A DNA stretch of 32,218 nucleotides. It comes from a virus. Lineage: Duplodnaviria; Heunggongvirae; Uroviricota; Caudoviricetes. The stretch lies in IMG/VR virus record IMGVR_UViG_2534682164_000018, one strand, 5' to 3'. Of this stretch, positions 18,247 through 28,386 are shown piece by piece. Both the position numbers and the translations under genes were made by a program. Each line of letters starts with the position of its first letter. Position 1 is the stretch's first letter. A model generated the notes under the pieces. The model did not search any database. It had not been told where the DNA came from and saw only the letters and a program-made list of their open reading frames with translations.

Positions 18247-20898
18247 ATGAGTGATATTTTCTCAGGAAGAGAATTATCAGTACAGTATAATGCTGATATT
18301 GGTAACAGAACACCACAGGGAGCAGGCAATGTAGTAATTAAACAGATTAATACTTTTCCAACCTTAACAATAAATTCAGAAGCAAATAATTTTGAAACGT
18401 ATGATAGTGATTACAGGACAGTACTACTATCTGATAAATCAGTAGCACCATTTGATATTGTAGTTAACTACCTACCTGATGATCCTACACATCAATTCTT
18501 GGATAATGCCGCTAAGTCTCAGCAGCTTTTCCAGATCATCATTCAGTACCAGATGAATAAGGATGAAAATACCATTACTTATGCGATGGTGAATGGTTAT
18601 ATCACCTCTTATAAGTTGGACGGTGATAAAGGTTCAGTAGTAACCAAGGCATACAGTTTTGCCCCACATGATGTGATCGCACGTGCAATGACCATTAACG
18701 CACTATCGCCAATCTATCAGGGGGACTACGGTTTAGGTTCGAACACTACGGATGTACCTCAGTACTCACCATCAGTACCTACGGGTAACAGCTTCATCAA
18801 AGTACCATCATCTCAAGCAGGCAATCCTGCCGGGGCGGATCTGATGGGAGTAGGGCTTGTAGATGGCACTACTGTAAGTTCTCTTGCGATGACAAAGACG
18901 GGTACTCTAAGTATCTATGCAAAGAACGCTACAACCGCCTGGACACGCATATATACCGCTACACAGATGGACGGGCGATACGTACCCCTTACACGTACCA
19001 TCAACGGCCATGCACTCACGGCCAATTTAGTACTGAACAGTGAAGATACAGGTTCAGTACCTGATACACGTACTGTGAATGGTAAGCCTCTAAGTGAGGA
19101 TGTAGTACTTACCAGTACTGATACCGGCTCTGTACCAGATACACGGACAGTTAATGGTCATGTACTCAGTGAAGATATAGTACTGAGTAGTGAAGATACA
19201 GGTTCAGTACCTGACACGCGTACAGTGAACGGTCATGTACTTAGTGAAAATGTAGTACTGAGTAGTGAAGATACAGGTTCAGTACCTGATACACGTATGG
19301 TCAACGGTCATGTACTCAGTGAGGATGTAGTACTTACCAGTACTGATGTTGGCTTAGGGAAGGTTACAGATGATGCCCAGCTTACGATAGCAGGTAATCT
19401 AAGTGATCTGGGGGACGTGGAAGAAGCACGTATTAACCTTGCTGTTTACTCAATGGATGAAGTAGATGCAGAGGTAACGGCTTTAGCTGACAGTATTACT
19501 TCCCTTGATTCCGCTTCCATGAAGAAAGCGAGTAACCTTTCTGATCTATCCAGTCTCTCTACAGCACGTACTAACCTACAGGTGAACCGTTTGACTCAGG
19601 GTGCTACGTACACCGATCTGATGAGTAATGACCTGACTAACCGTATCCGAATTCAGGATAACGGGGCATGGGGTGCAAGTACTGGTACTGGATGGATTGC
19701 TTTAGGTATAGGTCAGGGGGGGACAGGGGCTACAGATGCTTTGAGTGCTCGCCTAAACTTTCAGGTGGATCGCTTTAATCAAGGTAGTAATTTAACAACT
19801 ATTAAATCCGCTGATTCTTCCGCTGCATTAGTGGTTTATGATGGAGGGCAATGGGGTTCAGCTACATATATTGCGGGTGCTTTCACTGGCTGGAAAGCAT
19901 TAGCAATTCCGCAGGGCGGTACTGGTGTTAAGACTCAGGCTGAGTTATGGCCTGCGATTCGTCCTACGGGTGCAACTTCTTTAGCAGGAGATCCTGTCTC
20001 TGATTCTGACGCGACTACCAAACGCTGGGTTGAAAACTTGCTGAGTAGTCGTACTTCAGTTAGTCCTCAATGGGATGTTATTGCTTCTTCCCCTTCCTCT
20101 ACGGCAATTGGTAGTTATGTAACTGGAGGGCGTATTCGTTCGATATGCAACATTGGTACATCAACTGAAATATCTGGTGGTTTTCGGGTTGGTAAAACGA
20201 TGGGACAGACTGGACAGGCTGATCTCACCCTTTTTATTTCTGAAAATGGTGCAGAGGATAAACTATGGGGGCTAAAAGGGCCGACTGGAACGATCCTAAC
20301 TGATGTTCAATCAGGATGGATGACTAATACCGCTGTTTCGGGACCGACAGATGCCAATACCATCACCTTTAACGGTATGTATGCAGGGCCAGGTGACTCA
20401 GGTATTAACTATAGTGAAAAATATTCCCCTTTATTGCACATGCAAAGATACCCAGGGGCAAATCGCTCTCAGCTTCAGATAGACGGTGGTGGTACTTTAA
20501 GAGTACGAGGCGGGAACGGTACAACATGGTTTGGATGGTTAGTAATGCAAGCTCAAGGTACATCAGGTCGTGAGTTTAAAAGAGACATAACTCCAGCAAA
20601 TCCAGTTGAAGCATTAGATCGGATAATGTCACAAGATTTAGTAACGTTTATCTACAAGGATGATGAACAAGAAAGGGTTAGGTTTGGTGTTATCGCCGAA
20701 GATGCTGAGTTGACTGCTCCGCAGTACATTAAGCATGATGAAGAAACAGTTGAAATAGAAGGGGAGATTGTCACTCGTGATCATCCACGTGTTGATTTAA
20801 ATCCAATAGTGATGGACTTGATGGGAGCTATTCAAGCCCAACAAGAAGAAATTAATCAGCTAAAAGATTTAGTACAACAGCTATTAAATAATAAATAA
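18247..20898 (+). CDS. tail fibre with tail-tube-like N-domain, five 25-aa fibre repeats and C-terminal intramolecular-chaperone (peptidase S74-like) domain
   Basis: N-terminal 150 aa is paralogous to the 157-aa protein at 20957 (shared DIFSG...NTF...VNYLPD...HQ.L); repeats SVPDTRTVNGHVLSEDVVLTSTDTG; C-terminus ...EFKRDITP...RFGVIAEDAE... resembles autoproteolytic chaperone domains of phage fibres. Confidence 0.65.
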   Translation: MSDIFSGRELSVQYNADIGNRTPQGAGNVVIKQINTFPTLTINSEANNFETYDSDYRTVLLSDKSVAPFDIVVNYLPDDPTHQFLDNAAKSQQLFQIIIQYQMNKDENTITYAMVNGYITSYKLDGDKGSVVTKAYSFAPHDVIARAMTINALSPIYQGDYGLGSNTTDVPQYSPSVPTGNSFIKVPSSQAGNPAGADLMGVGLVDGTTVSSLAMTKTGTLSIYAKNATTAWTRIYTATQMDGRYVPLTRTINGHALTANLVLNSEDTGSVPDTRTVNGKPLSEDVVLTSTDTGSVPDTRTVNGHVLSEDIVLSSEDTGSVPDTRTVNGHVLSENVVLSSEDTGSVPDTRMVNGHVLSEDVVLTSTDVGLGKVTDDAQLTIAGNLSDLGDVEEARINLAVYSMDEVDAEVTALADSITSLDSASMKKASNLSDLSSLSTARTNLQVNRLTQGATYTDLMSNDLTNRIRIQDNGAWGASTGTGWIALGIGQGGTGATDALSARLNFQVDRFNQGSNLTTIKSADSSAALVVYDGGQWGSATYIAGAFTGWKALAIPQGGTGVKTQAELWPAIRPTGATSLAGDPVSDSDATTKRWVENLLSSRTSVSPQWDVIASSPSSTAIGSYVTGGRIRSICNIGTSTEISGGFRVGKTMGQTGQADLTLFISENGAEDKLWGLKGPTGTILTDVQSGWMTNTAVSGPTDANTITFNGMYAGPGDSGINYSEKYSPLLHMQRYPGANRSQLQIDGGGTLRVRGGNGTTWFGWLVMQAQGTSGREFKRDITPANPVEALDRIMSQDLVTFIYKDDEQERVRFGVIAEDAELTAPQYIKHDEETVEIEGEIVTRDHPRVDLNPIVMDLMGAIQAQQEEINQLKDLVQQLLNNK
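18991..19353 (+). repeat. five tandem 75-bp in-frame repeats encoding the fibre repeat
   Basis: Near-identical copies of acacgtac(a/t)gt(g/c)aa(c/t)ggtcatgtact(c/t)agtga(a/g)gat...ggttcagtacctgat read directly. Confidence 0.7.
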
Positions 20899-20956: not shown

Positions 20957-21430
20957 ATGGCTATGGATATTTTTTCCGGTGCTAACCTTACTGTAGAAGT
21001 AGGTTCAAGTGCTGGTAAAACAGTTGCTACTGACTTTGTAGAAGTACCAGAGGTAAACACCTTCAGTACTTCAGGCTTTGAAAGTACTGTAATTAGCGTA
21101 AAAACATTCAATAATGCTTATGATCGTAAGCTATTGGGTACTAAGTCAATCCCGGACATTTCTCTTGCAGTTAACTACTTACCAGATAATGCAGTACATC
21201 AGAATTTAGAACAACTTGCAGACGATCAGAAACGTTGTCAGGTAAAACTAAGCTATTTTACCGATGCAACTAAAAAAGAAGGTTTCTTTGTAATTTATAC
21301 CTGCTTTGTTTCAAGTACCACTATCGGTGGTGATAAAGATGAAGTAGTAACTAAGACTTTCACCCTTGCAGTTGATGGTGAAGCAATTGATTCAGGTCTG
21401 ATTACTCCAAAACCAGAATCGGGCGAATAA
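20957..21430 (+). CDS. major tail (tube) protein
   Basis: 157 aa, immediately upstream of chaperone and tape-measure genes, followed by a strong terminator; paralogous to the N-domain of the 883-aa fibre. Confidence 0.55.
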   Translation: MAMDIFSGANLTVEVGSSAGKTVATDFVEVPEVNTFSTSGFESTVISVKTFNNAYDRKLLGTKSIPDISLAVNYLPDNAVHQNLEQLADDQKRCQVKLSYFTDATKKEGFFVIYTCFVSSTTIGGDKDEVVTKTFTLAVDGEAIDSGLITPKPESGE

Positions 21431-21438
21431 TAATAAAT

Positions 21439-21470
21439 AAAGGGAAGGTGCTCAACTTTCCCTTTTTATT
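21439..21470 (+). terminator. rho-independent terminator after the major tail protein gene
   Basis: Stem aaagggaa / ttcccttt (8 bp) with 11-nt loop, followed by ttatt. Confidence 0.55.
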
Positions 21471-21536
21471 GGAGATGAAAATGAATTTAAACGAATTGAA
21501 GAAAAACTACAACCAGAATTAAAACCACATGAAGTA

Positions 21537-21779
21537 ATGGGTGAAATCATCTTTATTCATCGTCCAAATGGTCAGGATTTCCAGAAATGCACTGATGTGG
21601 CTAAAACTCTAATCCTATGTGTAAAAGATGAAAATGGTGATCCTATCTTCGCAGAAGAAGATATTGATGGACGAATTAATGTTAACTCTATTGATTTTGT
21701 AATCCAGAATGAAATTTACTCAGCAATTATTGCTTTAATCAATACTGCGAAACCTGTAGATGAAGTAGAAAAAAAGTAA
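21537..21779 (+). CDS. tail assembly chaperone (lambda G analogue)
   Basis: 80-aa ORF between tail-tube and tape-measure genes, ending ...VEKK-stop with slippery A_AAA_AAG one codon before the stop. Confidence 0.55.
   Translation: MGEIIFIHRPNGQDFQKCTDVAKTLILCVKDENGDPIFAEEDIDGRINVNSIDFVIQNEIYSAIIALINTAKPVDEVEKK
21770..21776 (+). other. candidate -1 programmed ribosomal frameshift site A_AAA_AAG
   Basis: In frame 0 the codons AAA AAG sit at 21771-21776; the -1 frame is open from 21764 to 22174. Confidence 0.5.
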
Positions 21780-22174
21780 GAGGTGATATCGAATTAAAGT
21801 ACTTTTGTAAGATGGTTAACAAAAGAGGCTTATCACCTGAAGAATACTTTAGTTTAGATCCTGATGTACTCAATATGCTTATGATCTACGATACTTTTAT
21901 AGAACCATCCGGTACGCAGATTGAAATGATGAAACATGCGTACCAGTGTTACTACACCACTATCAGTAATGGCAACCTAACACCAGAAGCAAGGAAAAGT
22001 ATCAAGGTACAGGATTTTGATTTTCTTGATGTGCTTAGTGATAGTACTAAGAGTACTTCAGAGAAAGCTGAAGAAAGAAAATTAAAAACTAAAGAGGCTC
22101 AATCCAATGATATTAAATCTATAGGGGAGTTAATTAAATCTCAGGTATTAGGAAAGAAAAAGAATGGCAAATAA
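21776..22174 (+). CDS. T-like extension of the tail assembly chaperone, probably made only as a G-T fusion by -1 frameshift
   Basis: -1 frame is open from the slippery site to just inside the tape-measure gene; the track ORF from the ATG at 21812 may not be translated on its own. Confidence 0.45.
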   Translation, partial: VRGDIELKYFCKMVNKRGLSPEEYFSLDPDVLNMLMIYDTFIEPSGTQIEMMKHAYQCYYTTISNGNLTPEARKSIKVQDFDFLDVLSDSTKSTSEKAEERKLKTKEAQSNDIKSIGELIKSQVLGKKKNGK

Positions 22175-24377
22175 TAATAGAATACGTGTAGATATTACGG
22201 GTGATTCTTCCGGTTTACAGCGTGCTTTAAGGTCTGGTACTGAATCATTAGAGGAATTTGGTAGTACTGCTGGTGGCATTGTTGAAGAGTTCACAGGCCG
22301 AATAACTGGTATGGCTGGCGGGTTCGGTACTGCTATGACCGGGATCGCGGGTGCTGCGGCTATTGGTATTGGTGGCCTGGCAGCATTAGTAGAATCATCA
22401 CGTGAATATGTGCGTGAAATGAACCAGATCAGTAAGAGTACCGGATTGTCCGTGGTTCAGTTACAACAGCTATCAGCGGCGTTTAGTGGCCTCGGTCTTG
22501 AGATTGATAAGTTTGGTGATTTCAACAAGGATACCTTGGATAAGCTCGGTGATGCTTTTCGTGCTGGCGGTGGTGTATCCGATGATCTTAAAGAATATGG
22601 ACTCAACCTACAGGACTATAACAAGTACTTAAAACAGGCTGATGGTGGTATGCAGGCTGTGATCCACACCTTTTACGCCATGCGTGATGCAGGTAAATCA
22701 CAGAGTGAAATAGTTAACGTAATGGAAACGTTAGCCAGTGACTCAAGCCACATGATTAGTACTCTTCAGCAGTTCAATAATGAGGCTCAAGCTACAGCCT
22801 ATATCCAGTCACAAAATGCTGAAGTAACTAATGATGCTGCTGAAAAATATGCTGAATTCGATAAAAACCTTGGGAAACTTACTACCAGCATTAAAGGTAC
22901 TATTGCTGATGGCCTATCACCTTTAGTTAATGCCATGAACAGTGTCTATGATGCTGCAAATCAAAAACCTCACGAGGCAGGTTTGTTTGAAGATCTGAAT
23001 GAACGTATTAAAACTTCCAAGGGTTCTCTACAGGATATGTTGGATATCTGGGAAAAATTACGTACAGCAGGGGCATTAAACTACCAGGGTGCAGCACTCA
23101 ATACTGGCATCATGGATGATAAGGGCAACAAGGGTAATGAGTTCGCTCAGGCTAAGGCACGTTTAGAAGAACTGGCAAACAACCTAAAGTCCGATGTTGC
23201 GGTTGCTACCGCTCCTACTGGCGGATGGGTTGATCAGGCAAAAGAAGCTGAAGATGCAGCGAAGAAGTTAGAACAACAACGTAAACAGGCAGAAGCGGCA
23301 CAAAAGGCGGCAGATGCAAAACGCCTACAGGCTCAACGTAATCTGGAAGCTGCTCTTGCTCAAGTTGGGGAAGATGGTTTTCAGGTACGTCTACAGCAGT
23401 TCGACAGACAACAAAAGGCACTTCTTAAAACCATCACCGATAGTGCTCAAGTACTCGGTATCAATCCTGATGAAATGCTAAAGAACGCTACTGCATATGG
23501 TGCTAAACAACGTACTGATTTACTGAATTCAATGGTTGGTTATCAAGATCCTAATCAGGGTCTGAAAGATACCAATGCTCTTATTGGTTCCGGTCTACTC
23601 AATGACAATCAGAAGGGGTATCTGGCACAGCAACAGAATCAGCGTATCAATGGTGGTAATCCATTAGCCTATAACGATACCGATCAGAAGTTGAAAGATA
23701 ACGCTGATGCTATGAATGCTGAACTTCAGCAGAATGAGTTGTTGCTGAAAGGCCATGAGGACTATGAGAAACGTAAAGCTGAGATCACGGCAAAGTACAA
23801 TGCACAGGCCATCCAAATCAGTAACCAGAATGCACAGGATCAGTTAAGTATCTTCTCAAGTACTGCACAGTCACTATCACAGGGCATGGTTGATGCGTTT
23901 GGGGAAAGTAGTGGGGCTGCACAAGCTGCATTTACCCTAAGTAAGAGCATAAGCATTGCACAGACAGTACTTTCAATTCAGTCAGCATTGGCCCAAGCAC
24001 TCGCTACCCCTTGGCCAGCTTCATTGGCAAACTATGCACAAGTACTTTCACTTGGTATGTCGATTATTAGTACTGCAAAGGGTGCTGCTGCTGGTCAGTT
24101 CCATGGCGGGGTAGATGAACTACCAGCAAGTTATGACAACAAATCATTTGTACTTAAGCAGGGCGAGAGAGTGGTGCAGCCTGAAGCGAATAAGAAATTA
24201 ACAGCATTCTTGGATAAACAAGAAGGTGGAAGTACTTCAGGTGATATTACCGTTAACGCACCATTGATCATCCAGGGTGATGTAGCTGATGATGACAAGA
24301 AATTTAATGAGATGCTTAAGAAACACGCCAATAGTGTTTCTCAAGCTGTGAGAAGTAGTCAAAAACGTAATACATAA
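22164..24377 (+). CDS. tail tape measure protein
   Basis: 737 aa, Ala/Gly/Gln-rich and coiled-coil-like, in the canonical position downstream of G/GT. Confidence 0.8.
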   Translation: MANNNRIRVDITGDSSGLQRALRSGTESLEEFGSTAGGIVEEFTGRITGMAGGFGTAMTGIAGAAAIGIGGLAALVESSREYVREMNQISKSTGLSVVQLQQLSAAFSGLGLEIDKFGDFNKDTLDKLGDAFRAGGGVSDDLKEYGLNLQDYNKYLKQADGGMQAVIHTFYAMRDAGKSQSEIVNVMETLASDSSHMISTLQQFNNEAQATAYIQSQNAEVTNDAAEKYAEFDKNLGKLTTSIKGTIADGLSPLVNAMNSVYDAANQKPHEAGLFEDLNERIKTSKGSLQDMLDIWEKLRTAGALNYQGAALNTGIMDDKGNKGNEFAQAKARLEELANNLKSDVAVATAPTGGWVDQAKEAEDAAKKLEQQRKQAEAAQKAADAKRLQAQRNLEAALAQVGEDGFQVRLQQFDRQQKALLKTITDSAQVLGINPDEMLKNATAYGAKQRTDLLNSMVGYQDPNQGLKDTNALIGSGLLNDNQKGYLAQQQNQRINGGNPLAYNDTDQKLKDNADAMNAELQQNELLLKGHEDYEKRKAEITAKYNAQAIQISNQNAQDQLSIFSSTAQSLSQGMVDAFGESSGAAQAAFTLSKSISIAQTVLSIQSALAQALATPWPASLANYAQVLSLGMSIISTAKGAAAGQFHGGVDELPASYDNKSFVLKQGERVVQPEANKKLTAFLDKQEGGSTSGDITVNAPLIIQGDVADDDKKFNEMLKKHANSVSQAVRSSQKRNT

Positions 24378-24387
24378 GAAAGCCCAG

Positions 24388-24861
24388 TTAGGGATTTTCC
24401 GTGTGATAAGACAAATATTGTGAAAGAGAAGATGAAAGGGTATAGAGATTGTAATACTCTTCCCGCAATAATTTAACTTTAGGTGGTGAGTATTTAATAT
24501 TGTATGCAAGCTGTGTTGAAAGAGTACGTAATCTCGATAATGAATAATAACTCTTTACGATGGCATCTACTTCTTTTTTTGGGAGTGATGCTAATTTTTC
24601 TAATTGGGAATAATATACATCATCATGCAAATAAGAAACGGCAGTTGCTACTCTTTTAATAGCTTCTGTATCTTCAGTTGGAAGAGGAATACATATTTCA
24701 TATGTGCCTAACACCTGAGACTCATCGCCACCAGTAGCAAGAGCTAAAAGGTTATTGTTGATTTCGCTCAATAAGATTACACGCATCTTAAAAACATCAT
24801 CTGAACTTTCTTTCCATTTATCATATGCGTTATAGCCTATTTGGCCTGCAAATAACAACAT
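24388..24861 (-). CDS. hypothetical reverse-strand moron inside the tail module
   Basis: 157-aa ORF fills the 583-bp gap between tape-measure and distal tail genes on the opposite strand; no recognised motif. Confidence 0.4.
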   Translation of the reverse strand: MLLFAGQIGYNAYDKWKESSDDVFKMRVILLSEINNNLLALATGGDESQVLGTYEICIPLPTEDTEAIKRVATAVSYLHDDVYYSQLEKLASLPKKEVDAIVKSYYSLSRLRTLSTQLAYNIKYSPPKVKLLREEYYNLYTLSSSLSQYLSYHTENP

Positions 24862-27050: not shown

Positions 27051-27141
27051 TAGACTGGCCCCCTGAATCTCCAGACAACCAGTATCACTTAAATAAGTGA
27101 TAGTCTTAATACTAGTTTTTAGACTAGTCATTGGAGTACAG

Positions 27142-27507
27142 ATGATTGATGTCTTAGGGCCGGAGAAACGCAGACGGCGTACCACACAGGAAAAGATCGC
27201 AATTGTTCAGCAGAGCTTTGAACCGGGGATGACGGTCTCCCTCGTTGCCCGGCAACATGGTGTAGCAGCCAGCCAGTTATTTCTCTGGCGTAAGCAATAC
27301 CAGGAAGGAAGTCTTACTGCTGTCGCCGCCGGAGAACAGGTTGTTCCTGCCTCTGAACTTGCTGCCGCCATGAAGCAGATTAAAGAACTCCAGCGCCTGC
27401 TCGGCAAGAAAACGATGGAAAATGAACTCCTCAAAGAAGCCGTTGAATATGGACGGGCAAAAAAGTGGATAGCGCACGCGCCCTTATTGCCCGGGGATGG
27501 GGAGTAA
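27142..27507 (+). CDS. insC: IS2 InsC (orfA)
   Basis: Same translation as the copy at 11699-12064. Confidence 0.9.
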
Positions 27508-28370
27508 GCTTAGTCAGCCGTTGTCTCCGGGTGTCGCGTGCGCAGTTGCACGTCATTCTCAGACGAACCGATGACTGGATGGATGGCCGCCGCAGTCGTC
27601 ACACTGATGATACGGATGTGCTTCTCCGTATACACCATGTTATCGGAGAGCTGCCCACGTATGGTTATCGTCGGGTATGGGCGCTGCTTCGCAGACAGGC
27701 AGAACTTGATGATATGCCTGCGATCAATGCCAAACGTGTTTACCGGATCATGCGCCAGAATGCGCTGTTGCTTGAGCGAAAACCTGCTGTACCGCCATCG
27801 AAACGGGCACATACAGGCAGAGTGGCCGTGAAAGAAAGCAATCAGCGATGGTGCTCTGACGGGTTCGAGTTCTGCTGTGATAACGGAGAGAGACTGCGTG
27901 TCACGTTCGCGCTGGACTGCTGTGATCGTGAGGCACTGCACTGGGCGGTGACTACCGGCGGCTTCAACAGTGAAACAGTACAGGACGTCATGCTGGGAGC
28001 GGTGGAACGCCGCTTCGGCAACGATCTTCCGTCGTCTCCAGTGGAGTGGCTGACGGATAATGGTTCATGCTACCGGGCTAATGAAACACGCCAGTTCGCC
28101 CGGATGTTGGGACTTGAACCGAAGAACACGGCGGTGCGGAGTCCGGAGAGTAACGGAATAGCAGAGAGCTTCGTGAAAACGATAAAGCGTGACTACATCA
28201 GTATCATGCCCAAACCAGACGGGTTAACGGCAGCAAAGAACCTTGCAGAGGCGTTCGAGCATTATAACGAATGGCATCCGCATAGTGCGCTGGGTTATCG
28301 CTCGCCACGGGAATATCTGCGGCAGCGGGCTTGTAATGGGTTAAGTGATAACAGATGTCTGGAAATATAG
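27465..28370 (+). CDS. insD: IS2 InsD transposase
   Basis: 301 aa; one residue differs from the other copy (Asp versus Gly in ...AELD(D/G)MPA...). Confidence 0.9.
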
Positions 28371-28386
28371 GGGCAAATCCAGTGGT

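What the first reader, a model, noticed from the sequence alone, without database searches (positions are those of the whole stretch)
21537..22174. Conserved G/GT-type -1 programmed frameshift with an A_AAA_AAG slippery heptamer
The 80-aa chaperone ORF ends one codon after A_AAA_AAG (21770-21776). The -1 frame is open from there to the tape-measure start, so a slip would give a fusion of about 211 aa. The position between tail-tube and tape-measure genes matches the conserved tail assembly chaperone frameshift of long-tailed phages. The 120-aa track ORF starting at 21812 is therefore probably not an independent gene.
Basis: partly seen in the sequence, partly recalled or inferred. Interest (0 to 1): 0.5.

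Follow-up and report, generated by a model that had tools for sequence, protein, structure and literature searches.

The report
Phage tail chaperone G/GT frameshift site
This is a real but ordinary example of the well-known ribosome "slip" that long-tailed phages use to make two tail-assembly chaperones from one message; it sits in a decaying Shigella sonnei prophage, is not annotated in any public record I looked at, and its first gene is cut short in this draft assembly by a one-base homopolymer miscall.

Summary
A_AAA_AAG (21770-21776) is in phase with the upstream ORF. TAA follows directly, and the -1 frame is open only from 21764 to 22174, overlapping the tape-measure start at 22164. The interpretation, a lambda-type G/GT -1 programmed frameshift, is strongly supported. 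All 56 related loci that contain the junction (39 distinct junctions among the 46 compared base by base; T identity down to 37%) keep GAAAAAAA[G/A]TAA while the flanks diverge. T is always in the -1 frame. The 11 codons after the slip evolve as coding sequence only in that frame. The "Met13" start has no ribosome-binding site and is a Leu in one clade. G matches tail-assembly-chaperone families.

One correction is needed. The 80-aa ORF is a truncation. The window is a Shigella sonnei 53G draft contig whose A-run at 21502-21506 is one base shorter than in every other record. The real gene starts at 21481, giving G of 99 aa and GT of 231 aa.

A hairpin starting 5 nt after the heptamer (21781-21838) is more stable than synonymous recodings. 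Across clades such structure is enriched at the junction, but it is not universal.

Verdict: a new, unannotated member of a known kind, of low to moderate interest.

The parts
20957..21430 (+). Tail tube (major tail) protein gene, 157 aa; upstream neighbour of the G/GT pair
   Evidence: PF08813 Phage_tail_3 at 34 bits (cutoff 24.2); phrog_158 E = 5.8e-19. NCBI records name it 'phage tail tube protein'.
21442..21470 (+). Terminator-like hairpin plus T-run between the tube gene and the G ribosome-binding site. It is a possible attenuator that lowers G/GT/tape-measure expression relative to the tube protein (inferred). Its T-run is one base short in this window.
   Evidence: Consensus scan. T5 here against T6 in all other records.
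21471..21474 (+). Shine-Dalgarno GGAG of gene G
   Evidence: Read from the sequence. GGAG lies before the MNL... start in the relatives. Duplex with the 16S tail is -6.4 kcal/mol.
21481..21779 (+). Gene G, tail assembly chaperone: 99 aa in all other records (MNLNELKKKLQPELK...VDEVEKK). In this window a one-base-shorter A-run puts the true start out of frame, so only the 80-aa ORF 21537-21779 is callable.
   Evidence: phrog_344 'tail assembly chaperone' is hit by 21 of 22 homologues, best E = 1.8e-8. PF16459 Phage_TAC_13 is hit by 20 of 22, all below its cutoff.
21502..21506 (+). A5 run (A6 in every other record): a one-base homopolymer under-call or private mutation that truncates G in this draft assembly
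   Evidence: 0 mismatches to HE616528.1 and CP179990.1 over 3.4 kb, with only the T5/T6 and A5/A6 gaps. The 80-aa product is on 1 contig and the 99-aa product on 353.
21770..21776 (+). Slippery heptamer A_AAA_AAG. P-site AAA and A-site AAG are both read by tRNA-Lys, and after a -1 slip both re-pair to AAA.
   Evidence: Invariant as GAAAAAAA[G/A] in 39 distinct junctions (25 with G, 14 with A).
21777..21779 (+). Zero-frame stop TAA of G, directly abutting the heptamer; invariant in all relatives
   Evidence: The first -1-frame codon is always GTA or ATA, although ATA is only 11% of Ile codons in these genes.
21776..22174 (+). T segment: 132 codons in the -1 frame, read only after the slip. The G-T fusion is 231 aa. 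It ends at TAA 22172-74, overlapping the tape-measure ATG.
   Evidence: It matches no Pfam or PHROG family. There are only about 14 convincing 50%-identity clusters among 1.84 billion representatives, and none is fused in frame to G.
21781..21838 (+). Predicted 3' stimulatory hairpin. The outer helix pairs AGGUGAUA (21781-88) with UAUCACCU (21831-38). The inner helix pairs CUUUUGU (21802-08) with ACAAAAG (21819-25), with the ATG at 21812 in its loop. The spacer after the heptamer is 4 nt.
   Evidence: z = -3.17 against dinucleotide shuffles. z = -2.4 to -2.5 against synonymous recodings. The junction is enriched for structure across clades, Mann-Whitney p = 5e-4. RNAalifold finds no shared structure, and the pair counts are weak.
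22164..24377 (+). Tape measure protein gene, 737 aa; downstream neighbour
   Evidence: phrog_13674 E = 5.4e-86.

Best explanation
This is the tail assembly chaperone pair G/GT of a lambda-like siphovirus prophage of Shigella sonnei and related Enterobacteriaceae, expressed by a programmed -1 ribosomal frameshift.

Proposed mechanism:
1. Ribosomes start at ATG 21481 (GGAG at 21471) and translate G, which is 99 aa in intact copies.
2. At the last two sense codons, AAA-AAG, the P- and A-site tRNA-Lys can slip one base back on A_AAA_AAG and re-pair with AAA-AAA.
3. Most ribosomes do not slip. They terminate at the adjacent UAA and release G.
4. The minority that slip read GUA AGA GGU... for 132 more codons and release the 231-aa GT just inside the tape-measure gene.
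5. Slipping is probably helped by a hairpin that starts 5 nt after the heptamer. It may also be helped by slow termination at the abutting UAA, which would allow a P-site A_AAG to AAA slip giving the same product.
6. By analogy with lambda, G and the G part of GT would coat the tape measure protein, and the T part would recruit the tube protein.

Shown here: the sequence geometry, its strict conservation, coding constraint in the -1 frame upstream of any start codon, and the chaperone homology of G. Inferred: that the fusion is made, its ratio to G, the roles of the hairpin and the stop, and the binding partners.
For: Geometry and phase.

Conservation:
- GAAAAAAA[G/A]TAA is invariant and T is always in the -1 frame, in 28 IMG/VR loci, 4 genome loci and 24 metagenome loci. 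Tape-measure identity runs from 36 to 100% and T identity from 37 to 93%.
- In the 22 distinct IMG/VR sequences examined, flanking synonymous sites vary freely. Codon choice at the site is fixed although GAA is 76% of Glu codons and AAA 66% of Lys codons.
- In most of them a -1-frame TGA directly precedes the heptamer, so the overlap is only 10 nt and the heptamer is the only possible crossover point.

T is not an independent gene:
- The 11 codons after the slip have a synonymous fraction of 0.33 in the T frame against 0.07 and 0.12, and no stops in 22 sequences against 15 and 20 of 22.
- The protein motif [VI]R[GST]D..L[KR][YH][FY][CL]K is kept, including an AGT to TCC serine codon-family switch.
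- There is no SD before Met13, and Met13 is Leu in L057-59.

Identity and context:
- G hits phrog_344 in 21 of 22 homologues (best E = 1.8e-8) and PF16459 in 20 of 22.
- Its neighbours are the tube and tape-measure genes.
- The mechanical in-window screen finds only this site and three IS3-family frameshift sites.

Structure: 3' structure is enriched at the junction. Mean z is -1.62 against -0.27 in 171 control windows, p = 5e-4.

Literature: A_AAA_AAG is among the most efficient -1 heptamers in E. coli, which has a single tRNA-Lys. The lambda G:GT ratio is about 30:1, and the frameshift is conserved in long-tailed phages (PMC5009743, PMC4066793).
Against: - There is no direct evidence that the fusion protein is made.
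- The Pfam chaperone match is below the curated cutoff (24 bits against 28.8), and T has no recognised family.
- The 3' hairpin is not family-wide. RNAalifold finds no consensus. L018, L019 and L029 show no excess structure. The covariation score (0.145) is matched by the +3 slid control (0.136).
- There is no dnaX-type upstream SD in the window.
- In this particular copy G is truncated and the J-like gene is split by IS2, so the site may not be in use in this strain.
Confidence: 0.87

Rival explanations
1. The same fusion is made, but by transcriptional slippage. RNA polymerase adds one extra A on the A7 or A8 run, and standard translation of the edited mRNA then gives GT.
For: The site is a homopolymer of 7 A (25 distinct junctions) or 8 A (14 junctions). 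A one-base insertion gives exactly the same protein as a -1 ribosomal slip. Only a few percent is needed if the lambda ratio of about 30:1 applies (PMC5009743).
Against: Efficient slippage by bacterial RNA polymerase is documented for runs of 9 A or T (PMC5009743), and no relative here has more than 8. The run is always in the exact X_XXY_YYZ phase, and the commoner form ends in G, the form best suited to tRNA-Lys re-pairing (PMC5009743). The 3' RNA structure sits at the spacing typical of ribosomal stimulators. Phase conservation is not independent evidence, because the sequences are homologous.
Confidence: 0.08
2. T is an independent gene translated from ATG 21812 (120 aa), as every public annotation has it, and the heptamer is incidental.
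For: Gene callers call a 120-aa 'hypothetical protein' on 261 contigs. Met13 is kept in most relatives.
Against: There is no SD within 18 nt of the ATG in any relative. The 11 codons upstream of it are under -1-frame coding constraint and free of stops. Met13 is Leu in L057-59 and displaced in L029. The invariance of the heptamer plus stop across 39 distinct junctions would be left unexplained. In the window's fold the ATG lies in the loop of the inner hairpin.
Confidence: 0.04
3. The frame break is an artefact or a pseudogene lesion. G and T are really one ORF, and the A-run is mis-sequenced or mutated, like the other homopolymer errors in this draft.
For: This draft assembly does have private homopolymer indels at 21462, 21501, 24900 and 29772. 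One ENA contig (P0002) reads the G tail and T head in one frame.
Against: The A7 run and the abutting TAA are identical in the eight other S. sonnei records compared, including finished chromosomes. The -1 architecture is the same in all 56 junction-bearing loci from independent projects. None of the T-domain representatives among 1.84 billion clusters is a G-T fusion. P0002 also has a divergent start and end, which points to a noisy assembly.
Confidence: 0.01

Closest known systems
Phage lambda gpG/gpGT tail assembly chaperone frameshift (Levin, Hendrix and Casjens 1993; Xu, Hendrix and Duda 2004, 2013, 2014; summarised in PMC5009743)
   Same: Two overlapping ORFs lie between the major tail gene and the tape measure gene. 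The second ORF is in the -1 frame with no start signals of its own. A slippery heptamer ending in A_AAG lies near the end of G. The arrangement is conserved despite sequence divergence, and G belongs to a tail-assembly-chaperone family.
   Different: The heptamer is A_AAA_AAG or A_AAA_AAA rather than lambda's G_GGA_AAG (lambda's heptamer is from my own knowledge). The zero-frame stop abuts the heptamer (distance 0 nt), whereas the mean distance is 26-36 nt in curated phage sets (PMC10885494). The T domain has no detectable similarity to any Pfam or PHROG family. Product ratio and binding partners are untested.
E. coli dnaX and IS3-family (IS2, IS3, IS911) A_AAA_AAG -1 frameshift cassettes
   Same: The heptamer and the host translation apparatus are identical (a single tRNA-Lys with mnm5s2U34). 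A 3' hairpin is predicted a few nucleotides downstream. Three IS3-family examples sit in the same window (27459, the reverse complement at 11741, and 31614). Some dnaX variants also have the zero-frame stop directly after the shift site (PMC5009743).
   Different: There is no upstream Shine-Dalgarno-like stimulator in the window. The hairpin has a 4-nt spacer and is not conserved across the whole family. The product is a structural-assembly chaperone fusion rather than a polymerase subunit or a transposase.
'Shifty stop' frameshifting (Weiss et al. 1987, cited in PMC5009743)
   Same: A shift-prone A_AAG is followed at once by a stop codon. Slow termination could therefore give the P-site tRNA-Lys time to slip -1.
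   Different: This is only an inference here. A full tandem-slippage heptamer is present and would suffice without the stop. The invariance of the stop could equally reflect constraint on the G C-terminus.

Membership tests
Long-tailed phage G/GT tail assembly chaperone with programmed -1 frameshift | Two consecutive ORFs located between the major tail (tube) gene and the tape measure gene | tested here: met
   Tube 20957-21430 (PF08813, phrog_158); G/T 21481-22174; tape measure 22164-24377 (phrog_13674).
Long-tailed phage G/GT tail assembly chaperone with programmed -1 frameshift | The second ORF overlaps the end of the first in the -1 frame, and a slippery sequence lies in phase inside the overlap | tested here: met
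   The overlap is 21764-21779. A_AAA_AAG at 21770-76 is in phase. The overlap is 10-43 nt in the relatives and always contains the heptamer.
Long-tailed phage G/GT tail assembly chaperone with programmed -1 frameshift | The second ORF has no translation start of its own and is translated from the slip site | tested here: met
   No SD before Met13. Coding constraint and no stops in the -1 frame upstream of Met13. Met13 is Leu in L057-59. This is indirect evidence: translation itself was not observed.
Long-tailed phage G/GT tail assembly chaperone with programmed -1 frameshift | The frameshift arrangement is conserved among diverged relatives | tested here: met
   All 56 junction-bearing loci keep the motif and the -1 frame; the 46 compared base by base give 39 distinct junctions.
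Long-tailed phage G/GT tail assembly chaperone with programmed -1 frameshift | G is homologous to recognised tail assembly chaperone families | tested here: met
   phrog_344 is hit by 21 of 22 homologues, best E = 1.8e-8. PF16459 Phage_TAC_13 is hit by 20 of 22 but always below the 28.8-bit cutoff. There is no sequence match to a solved structure. G is therefore a remote member.
Long-tailed phage G/GT tail assembly chaperone with programmed -1 frameshift | The T domain is similar to a known T-domain family | tested here: not met
   No Pfam or PHROG hit for any of 22 T sequences. T domains are known to be very diverse, so this does not weigh against the mechanism.
Long-tailed phage G/GT tail assembly chaperone with programmed -1 frameshift | Both G and a minor GT fusion are made (a few percent), both are needed for tail assembly, and neither is in the virion | not testable with these tools
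   Needs reporter assays, proteomics and genetics.
dnaX/IS3-type A_AAA_AAG cassette | Shine-Dalgarno-like stimulator 6-17 nt upstream of the heptamer | tested here: not met
   The window segment cctgtagatgaa has no SD core, and its duplex energy with the anti-SD is +0.4 kcal/mol. Only 4 of 30 distinct relatives have an SD-core 4-mer.
dnaX/IS3-type A_AAA_AAG cassette | Stable stem-loop or pseudoknot a few nucleotides 3' of the heptamer | tested here: inconclusive
   The window hairpin 21781-21838 has z = -3.2 against shuffles and z = -2.5 against recodings. Junctions are enriched over control windows, p = 5e-4. But there is no consensus structure, covariation is weak, and three clades show none.

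The most novel reading that the evidence does not exclude
The strictly invariant juxtaposition is itself the functional unit. The heptamer is abutted by UAA, and in many relatives a -1-frame UGA sits directly before it. On this reading GT would be made by two routes: tandem slippage on A_AAA_AAG, and a termination-coupled P-site slip (A_AAG with UAA in the A site). The GT:G ratio would then respond to release-factor availability and to a clade-variable 3' hairpin. That would be a tunable, 'shifty-stop'-assisted version of the tail chaperone frameshift. The orphan T domain might then load two tube paralogues: the 157-aa tube protein and the 883-aa tube-fibre fusion encoded just upstream.
Probability: 0.15. 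Interest if true: 0.4.

Novelty: new member of a known kind. Interest (0 to 1): 0.25.

Why it matters
Practically, G, T and the tape measure protein are labelled 'hypothetical protein' (or, at most, generic 'Phage protein' / 'Phage-related protein') in the S. sonnei and E. coli records listed here. T is called as a free 120-aa gene in all eight gene-call tables examined. The correct annotation is one chaperone gene with a -1 ribosomal slippage join, giving G of 99 aa and GT of 231 aa.

The family is a clean natural data set for testing the contribution of an adjacent stop and of variable 3' hairpins to -1 frameshifting in enterobacteria. It has 39 distinct junctions, an invariant 12-nt core, and a heptamer abutting the stop.

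It does not change what is known about tail assembly.

Tried and rejected
- Megablast of the region against GenBank phages and complete E. coli genomes found nothing.
- tblastn of the fusion against phages gave one remote T-like hit, phage DCP80, whose G/T overlap lacks a canonical heptamer. I did not pursue it.
- RNAalifold on 16 junctions returned no consensus structure.
- Explicit pair counting for the window's two helices was only weakly better than the slid controls. I therefore do not claim a conserved, homologous structure, only a clade-variable tendency to fold.
- A profile search of G against PDB sequences found nothing meaningful.
- The word-indexed search with the fusion returned only two T-like proteins, so I did not attempt structure prediction.
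- I considered that the strongly SD-like GAGGUGAU just after the stop (-13.1 kcal/mol with the 16S tail) might be an internal ribosome-binding site or a frameshift stimulator in its own right. I rejected this. There is no start codon at SD spacing, the sequence lies downstream of the shifting ribosome's A site, and L017 carries CCUC at the same position while still pairing.
- I considered that the A5 run at 21502-06 might be a second programmed shift. I rejected this. G_AAA_AAC is not a canonical heptamer, and every other record has A6 with an intact ORF.

Full report
1. THE OBSERVATION

The sequence is as described. The zero-frame codons read GTA GAA AAA AAG TAA. A_AAA_AAG (21770-21776) is therefore in the X_XXY_YYZ phase, and the stop (21777-79) abuts it. 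The -1 frame has a TGA at 21761-63 and is then open from 21764 to the TAA at 22172-74, which overlaps the tape-measure ATG at 22164. That frame has no ATG, GTG or TTG before 21812. A slip gives ...VEKK-VRGDIELK....

The crossover can only happen inside a 16-nt window, and the heptamer fills it. As an internal control I screened every AAAAAA[AG] on both strands for being in phase with at least 60 open codons upstream and at least 60 open -1-frame codons downstream. Four sites pass. They are this one and three IS3-family transposase orfA/orfB junctions (27459, the reverse complement at 11741, and 31614-20). Two of those lie in IS2 copies that are 99.3-99.6% identical to E. coli IS2. The criterion therefore picks out only this site and known frameshift sites.

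2. WHAT THE WINDOW IS

The window is 100% identical to contig ADUU01000102.1 of the draft assembly GCA_000188795.2. By its locus tags (SS53G_3232) this is Shigella sonnei 53G.

The region is the late operon of a siphovirus-type prophage. In order it encodes large terminase, a head-tail joining protein, portal, a protease/major-head fusion, an 883-aa tube-fibre protein, the 157-aa tube protein, G/T, the tape measure protein, the distal tail protein, two further tail proteins and a J-like central fibre. Relatives are prophages in Scandinavium, Buttiauxella, Pseudescherichia and Pluralibacter, plus a partial tape-measure match in Enterobacter.

This copy is decaying. IS2, flanked by a 5-bp duplication GTGGT, and a 1-nt indel split the J-like gene. 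That gene is a single 1100-aa ORF in the otherwise identical L002.

3. CORRECTION TO THE 80-AA ORF

In every relative G is a 99-aa protein, MNL(N/Q)xLKKKLQP..., preceded by GGAG. In the window that start (ATG 21481, GGAG 21471-74) is out of frame, because the A-run at 21502-06 has five A where all other records have six.

Over 10.9 kb the window has no substitutions relative to L001-L003. It has only four single-base indels, three of them in T or A runs. Eight other records all show T6/A6. They include the finished chromosomes HE616528.1 and CP179990.1, which have no mismatches to the window. The 80-aa product is on one contig and the 99-aa product on 353.

A homopolymer under-call in the draft is the simplest reading, and a private mutation cannot be excluded. 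Either way the real products are G of 99 aa and GT of 231 aa. The A7 run at the slip site is identical in all these records.

4. COMPARATIVE TEST OF THE FRAMESHIFT

I collected 28 IMG/VR loci (tape-measure identity 36-100%), 4 genome loci and 24 metagenome loci (T identity 37-93%) that contain the junction.
- All 56 keep GAAAAAAA[G/A]TAA, with T in the -1 frame. The 46 loci compared base by base give 39 distinct junction sequences, 25 ending in G and 14 in A.
- In the 22 distinct IMG/VR sequences examined, flanking synonymous sites vary freely. Codon choice at the site is fixed, although GAA is 76% of Glu codons and AAA 66% of Lys codons in these genes. The first -1-frame codon is always GTA or ATA, although ATA is only 11% of Ile codons.
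- In most relatives a -1-frame TGA directly precedes the heptamer, which leaves a 10-nt overlap.
- L011, which my first screen flagged, keeps the site and merely has a premature stop later in T.

5. T IS NOT AN INDEPENDENT GENE

- The 11 codons between the slip site and Met13 have a synonymous fraction of 0.33 in the T frame, against 0.07 and 0.12 in the other two frames. They contain no stop in 22 sequences, against stops in 15 and 20 of 22.
- The encoded motif [VI]R[GST]D..L[KR][YH][FY][CL]K is kept, including a switch between the AGT and TCC serine codon families.
- No relative has an SD before Met13.
- In L057-59 the position is Leu, and in L029 the Met is displaced.
- An exhaustive phmmer search of T against 1.84 billion representatives found only about 14 convincing clusters. 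All are 90-130 aa and none is fused in frame to G.

6. IDENTITY OF THE PARTS

G hits PHROG 344 'tail assembly chaperone' in 21 of 22 homologues, best E = 1.8e-8. It hits Pfam PF16459 Phage_TAC_13 in 20 of 22, always below the curated cutoff. T has no Pfam or PHROG family.

7. STIMULATORS

3' structure in the window. The window folds into a two-level hairpin that starts 5 nt after the heptamer. The outer helix pairs 21781-88 with 21831-38. The inner helix pairs 21802-08 with 21819-25, with the ATG at 21812 in its loop. It scores z = -3.17 against dinucleotide shuffles and z = -2.4 to -2.5 against synonymous recodings that keep the T protein.

3' structure across the family. RNAalifold finds no shared structure, and explicit pair counts are only weakly above the slid controls. 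The 5' arm stays in place while its partner changes between clades. L015 has a compensatory U-A to C-G change. In L017, L018, L055 and L057 the 5' arm pairs instead with the KRGL codons. With locus-specific codon usage, 15 clade representatives have a mean z of -1.62, against -0.27 for 171 control windows in the same genes (Mann-Whitney p = 5e-4). 47% of junction windows fall below -1.64, against 13% of controls. L018, L019 and L029 show nothing. I conclude that a 3' hairpin is a likely but clade-variable helper.

Upstream SD. There is no dnaX-type upstream SD in the window.

The adjacent stop. The abutting UAA is invariant. It may add a 'shifty stop' route, but that is inference.

8. MECHANISM AND RIVALS

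The best explanation is a -1 ribosomal frameshift on A_AAA_AAG by the single enterobacterial tRNA-Lys. This heptamer is among the most efficient in E. coli (PMC5009743, PMC4066793). By analogy with lambda, where G:GT is about 30:1, it would give a minor GT fusion (PMC5009743).

Transcriptional slippage gives the same protein and cannot be excluded by sequence alone. It is less likely, because efficient bacterial slippage is documented at runs of 9 (PMC5009743) and no relative here exceeds 8. Independent initiation of T, and an assembly artefact at the A7 run, are both contradicted by the comparative data.

9. COMPARISON AND NOVELTY

This is the classical G/GT recoding of long-tailed phages. 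The differences from the lambda prototype are the heptamer, the zero distance between heptamer and stop (the mean is 26-36 nt in curated sets, PMC10885494), and an orphan T domain.

The records seen here label G and T 'hypothetical protein' (G in one case generically 'Phage protein') and call T as a free gene. The finding is therefore a new, unannotated member of a known kind. Interest is low to moderate.

Noticed in passing
21458-21462 and 21502-21506; also 24900 and 29772: The window differs from otherwise identical S. sonnei records only by single-base indels: T5/T6, A5/A6, A7/A8 and AA/A. Two of them break ORFs (G and the J-like fibre gene). This is the signature of homopolymer sequencing error in the draft contig ADUU01000102.1, or of very recent decay.
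   Followed up: yes
27051-28381 (+) and 10825-12155 (-): Two IS2 copies, 99.9% identical to each other and 99.3-99.6% to E. coli IS2. The first has a 5-bp target duplication GTGGT and interrupts the J-like central tail fibre gene, which is a single 1100-aa ORF in L002. Each copy carries its own in-phase A_AAA_AAG orfA/orfB frameshift site (27459, and the reverse complement at 11741).
   Followed up: yes
about 30703-31901 (-): A third IS3-family-like ORF pair (110 aa and 279 aa) with an in-phase A_AAA_AAG at 31614-31620 and a 303-codon -1 frame. It lies at the end of the contig. Its family was not identified.
   Followed up: partly
18247-20898 (+): An 883-aa protein. Its first ~140 residues are a paralogue of the neighbouring tube protein (31% identity, E = 4e-21). 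These are followed by about five 25-aa repeats (TRTVNGHVLSEDVVL.SEDTGSVPD), tail-fibre domains and a C-terminal Peptidase_S74 chaperone domain. It may be a tube subunit that carries a side fibre. Its called length varies among the records examined (883, 808, 633, 542 and 286 aa).
   Followed up: partly
21442-21470 (+): A terminator-like hairpin (GGGAAGGTGCTCAACTTTCC plus a T-run) lies between the tube gene stop and the G ribosome-binding site. The T-run followed by GGAG recurs in the relatives. It may be an attenuator that sets tube protein well above G, GT and the tape measure protein.
   Followed up: partly
24388-24861 (-): A 157-aa ORF on the opposite strand between the tape measure and distal tail genes. 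It matches no PHROG or Pfam family. The alignment with the 95%-identical relative L004 breaks across this segment, which suggests a moron-like insertion.
   Followed up: no
21780-21787: GAGGUGAU directly after the G stop is a very strong Shine-Dalgarno mimic (-13.1 kcal/mol with the 16S 3' tail), yet there is no start codon at SD spacing. Its pairing partner UAUCACCU (21831-38) mimics the anti-SD. L017 has CCUC at the same position, so the conserved feature seems to be the pairing, not SD-likeness.
   Followed up: partly
P0002 (ENA, 1.37-Mb contig): A predicted 132-aa protein reads the G tail and T head in one frame (...DEIEK-IRGDSHLL...), as if the A-run were two bases shorter. Its start and end also deviate from the relatives, so it is probably a noisy assembly rather than a natural fusion.
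   Followed up: no
L031 (Escherichia phage DCP80, PQ671644.1) 5639-6324: The only GenBank phage with a T-like ORF (36% identity). It has a 118-aa ORF and then a -1-frame ORF before an 805-aa tape-measure-sized gene. The 37-nt overlap has no canonical heptamer, only an A_AAA tetramer (UCA AAA G). All its genes are annotated as hypothetical.
   Followed up: partly
L011 5620-5919: In this relative the T ORF is cut to 99 aa by a premature TAG, while the slip site is intact. This is a mutated prophage copy or an assembly error.
   Followed up: no
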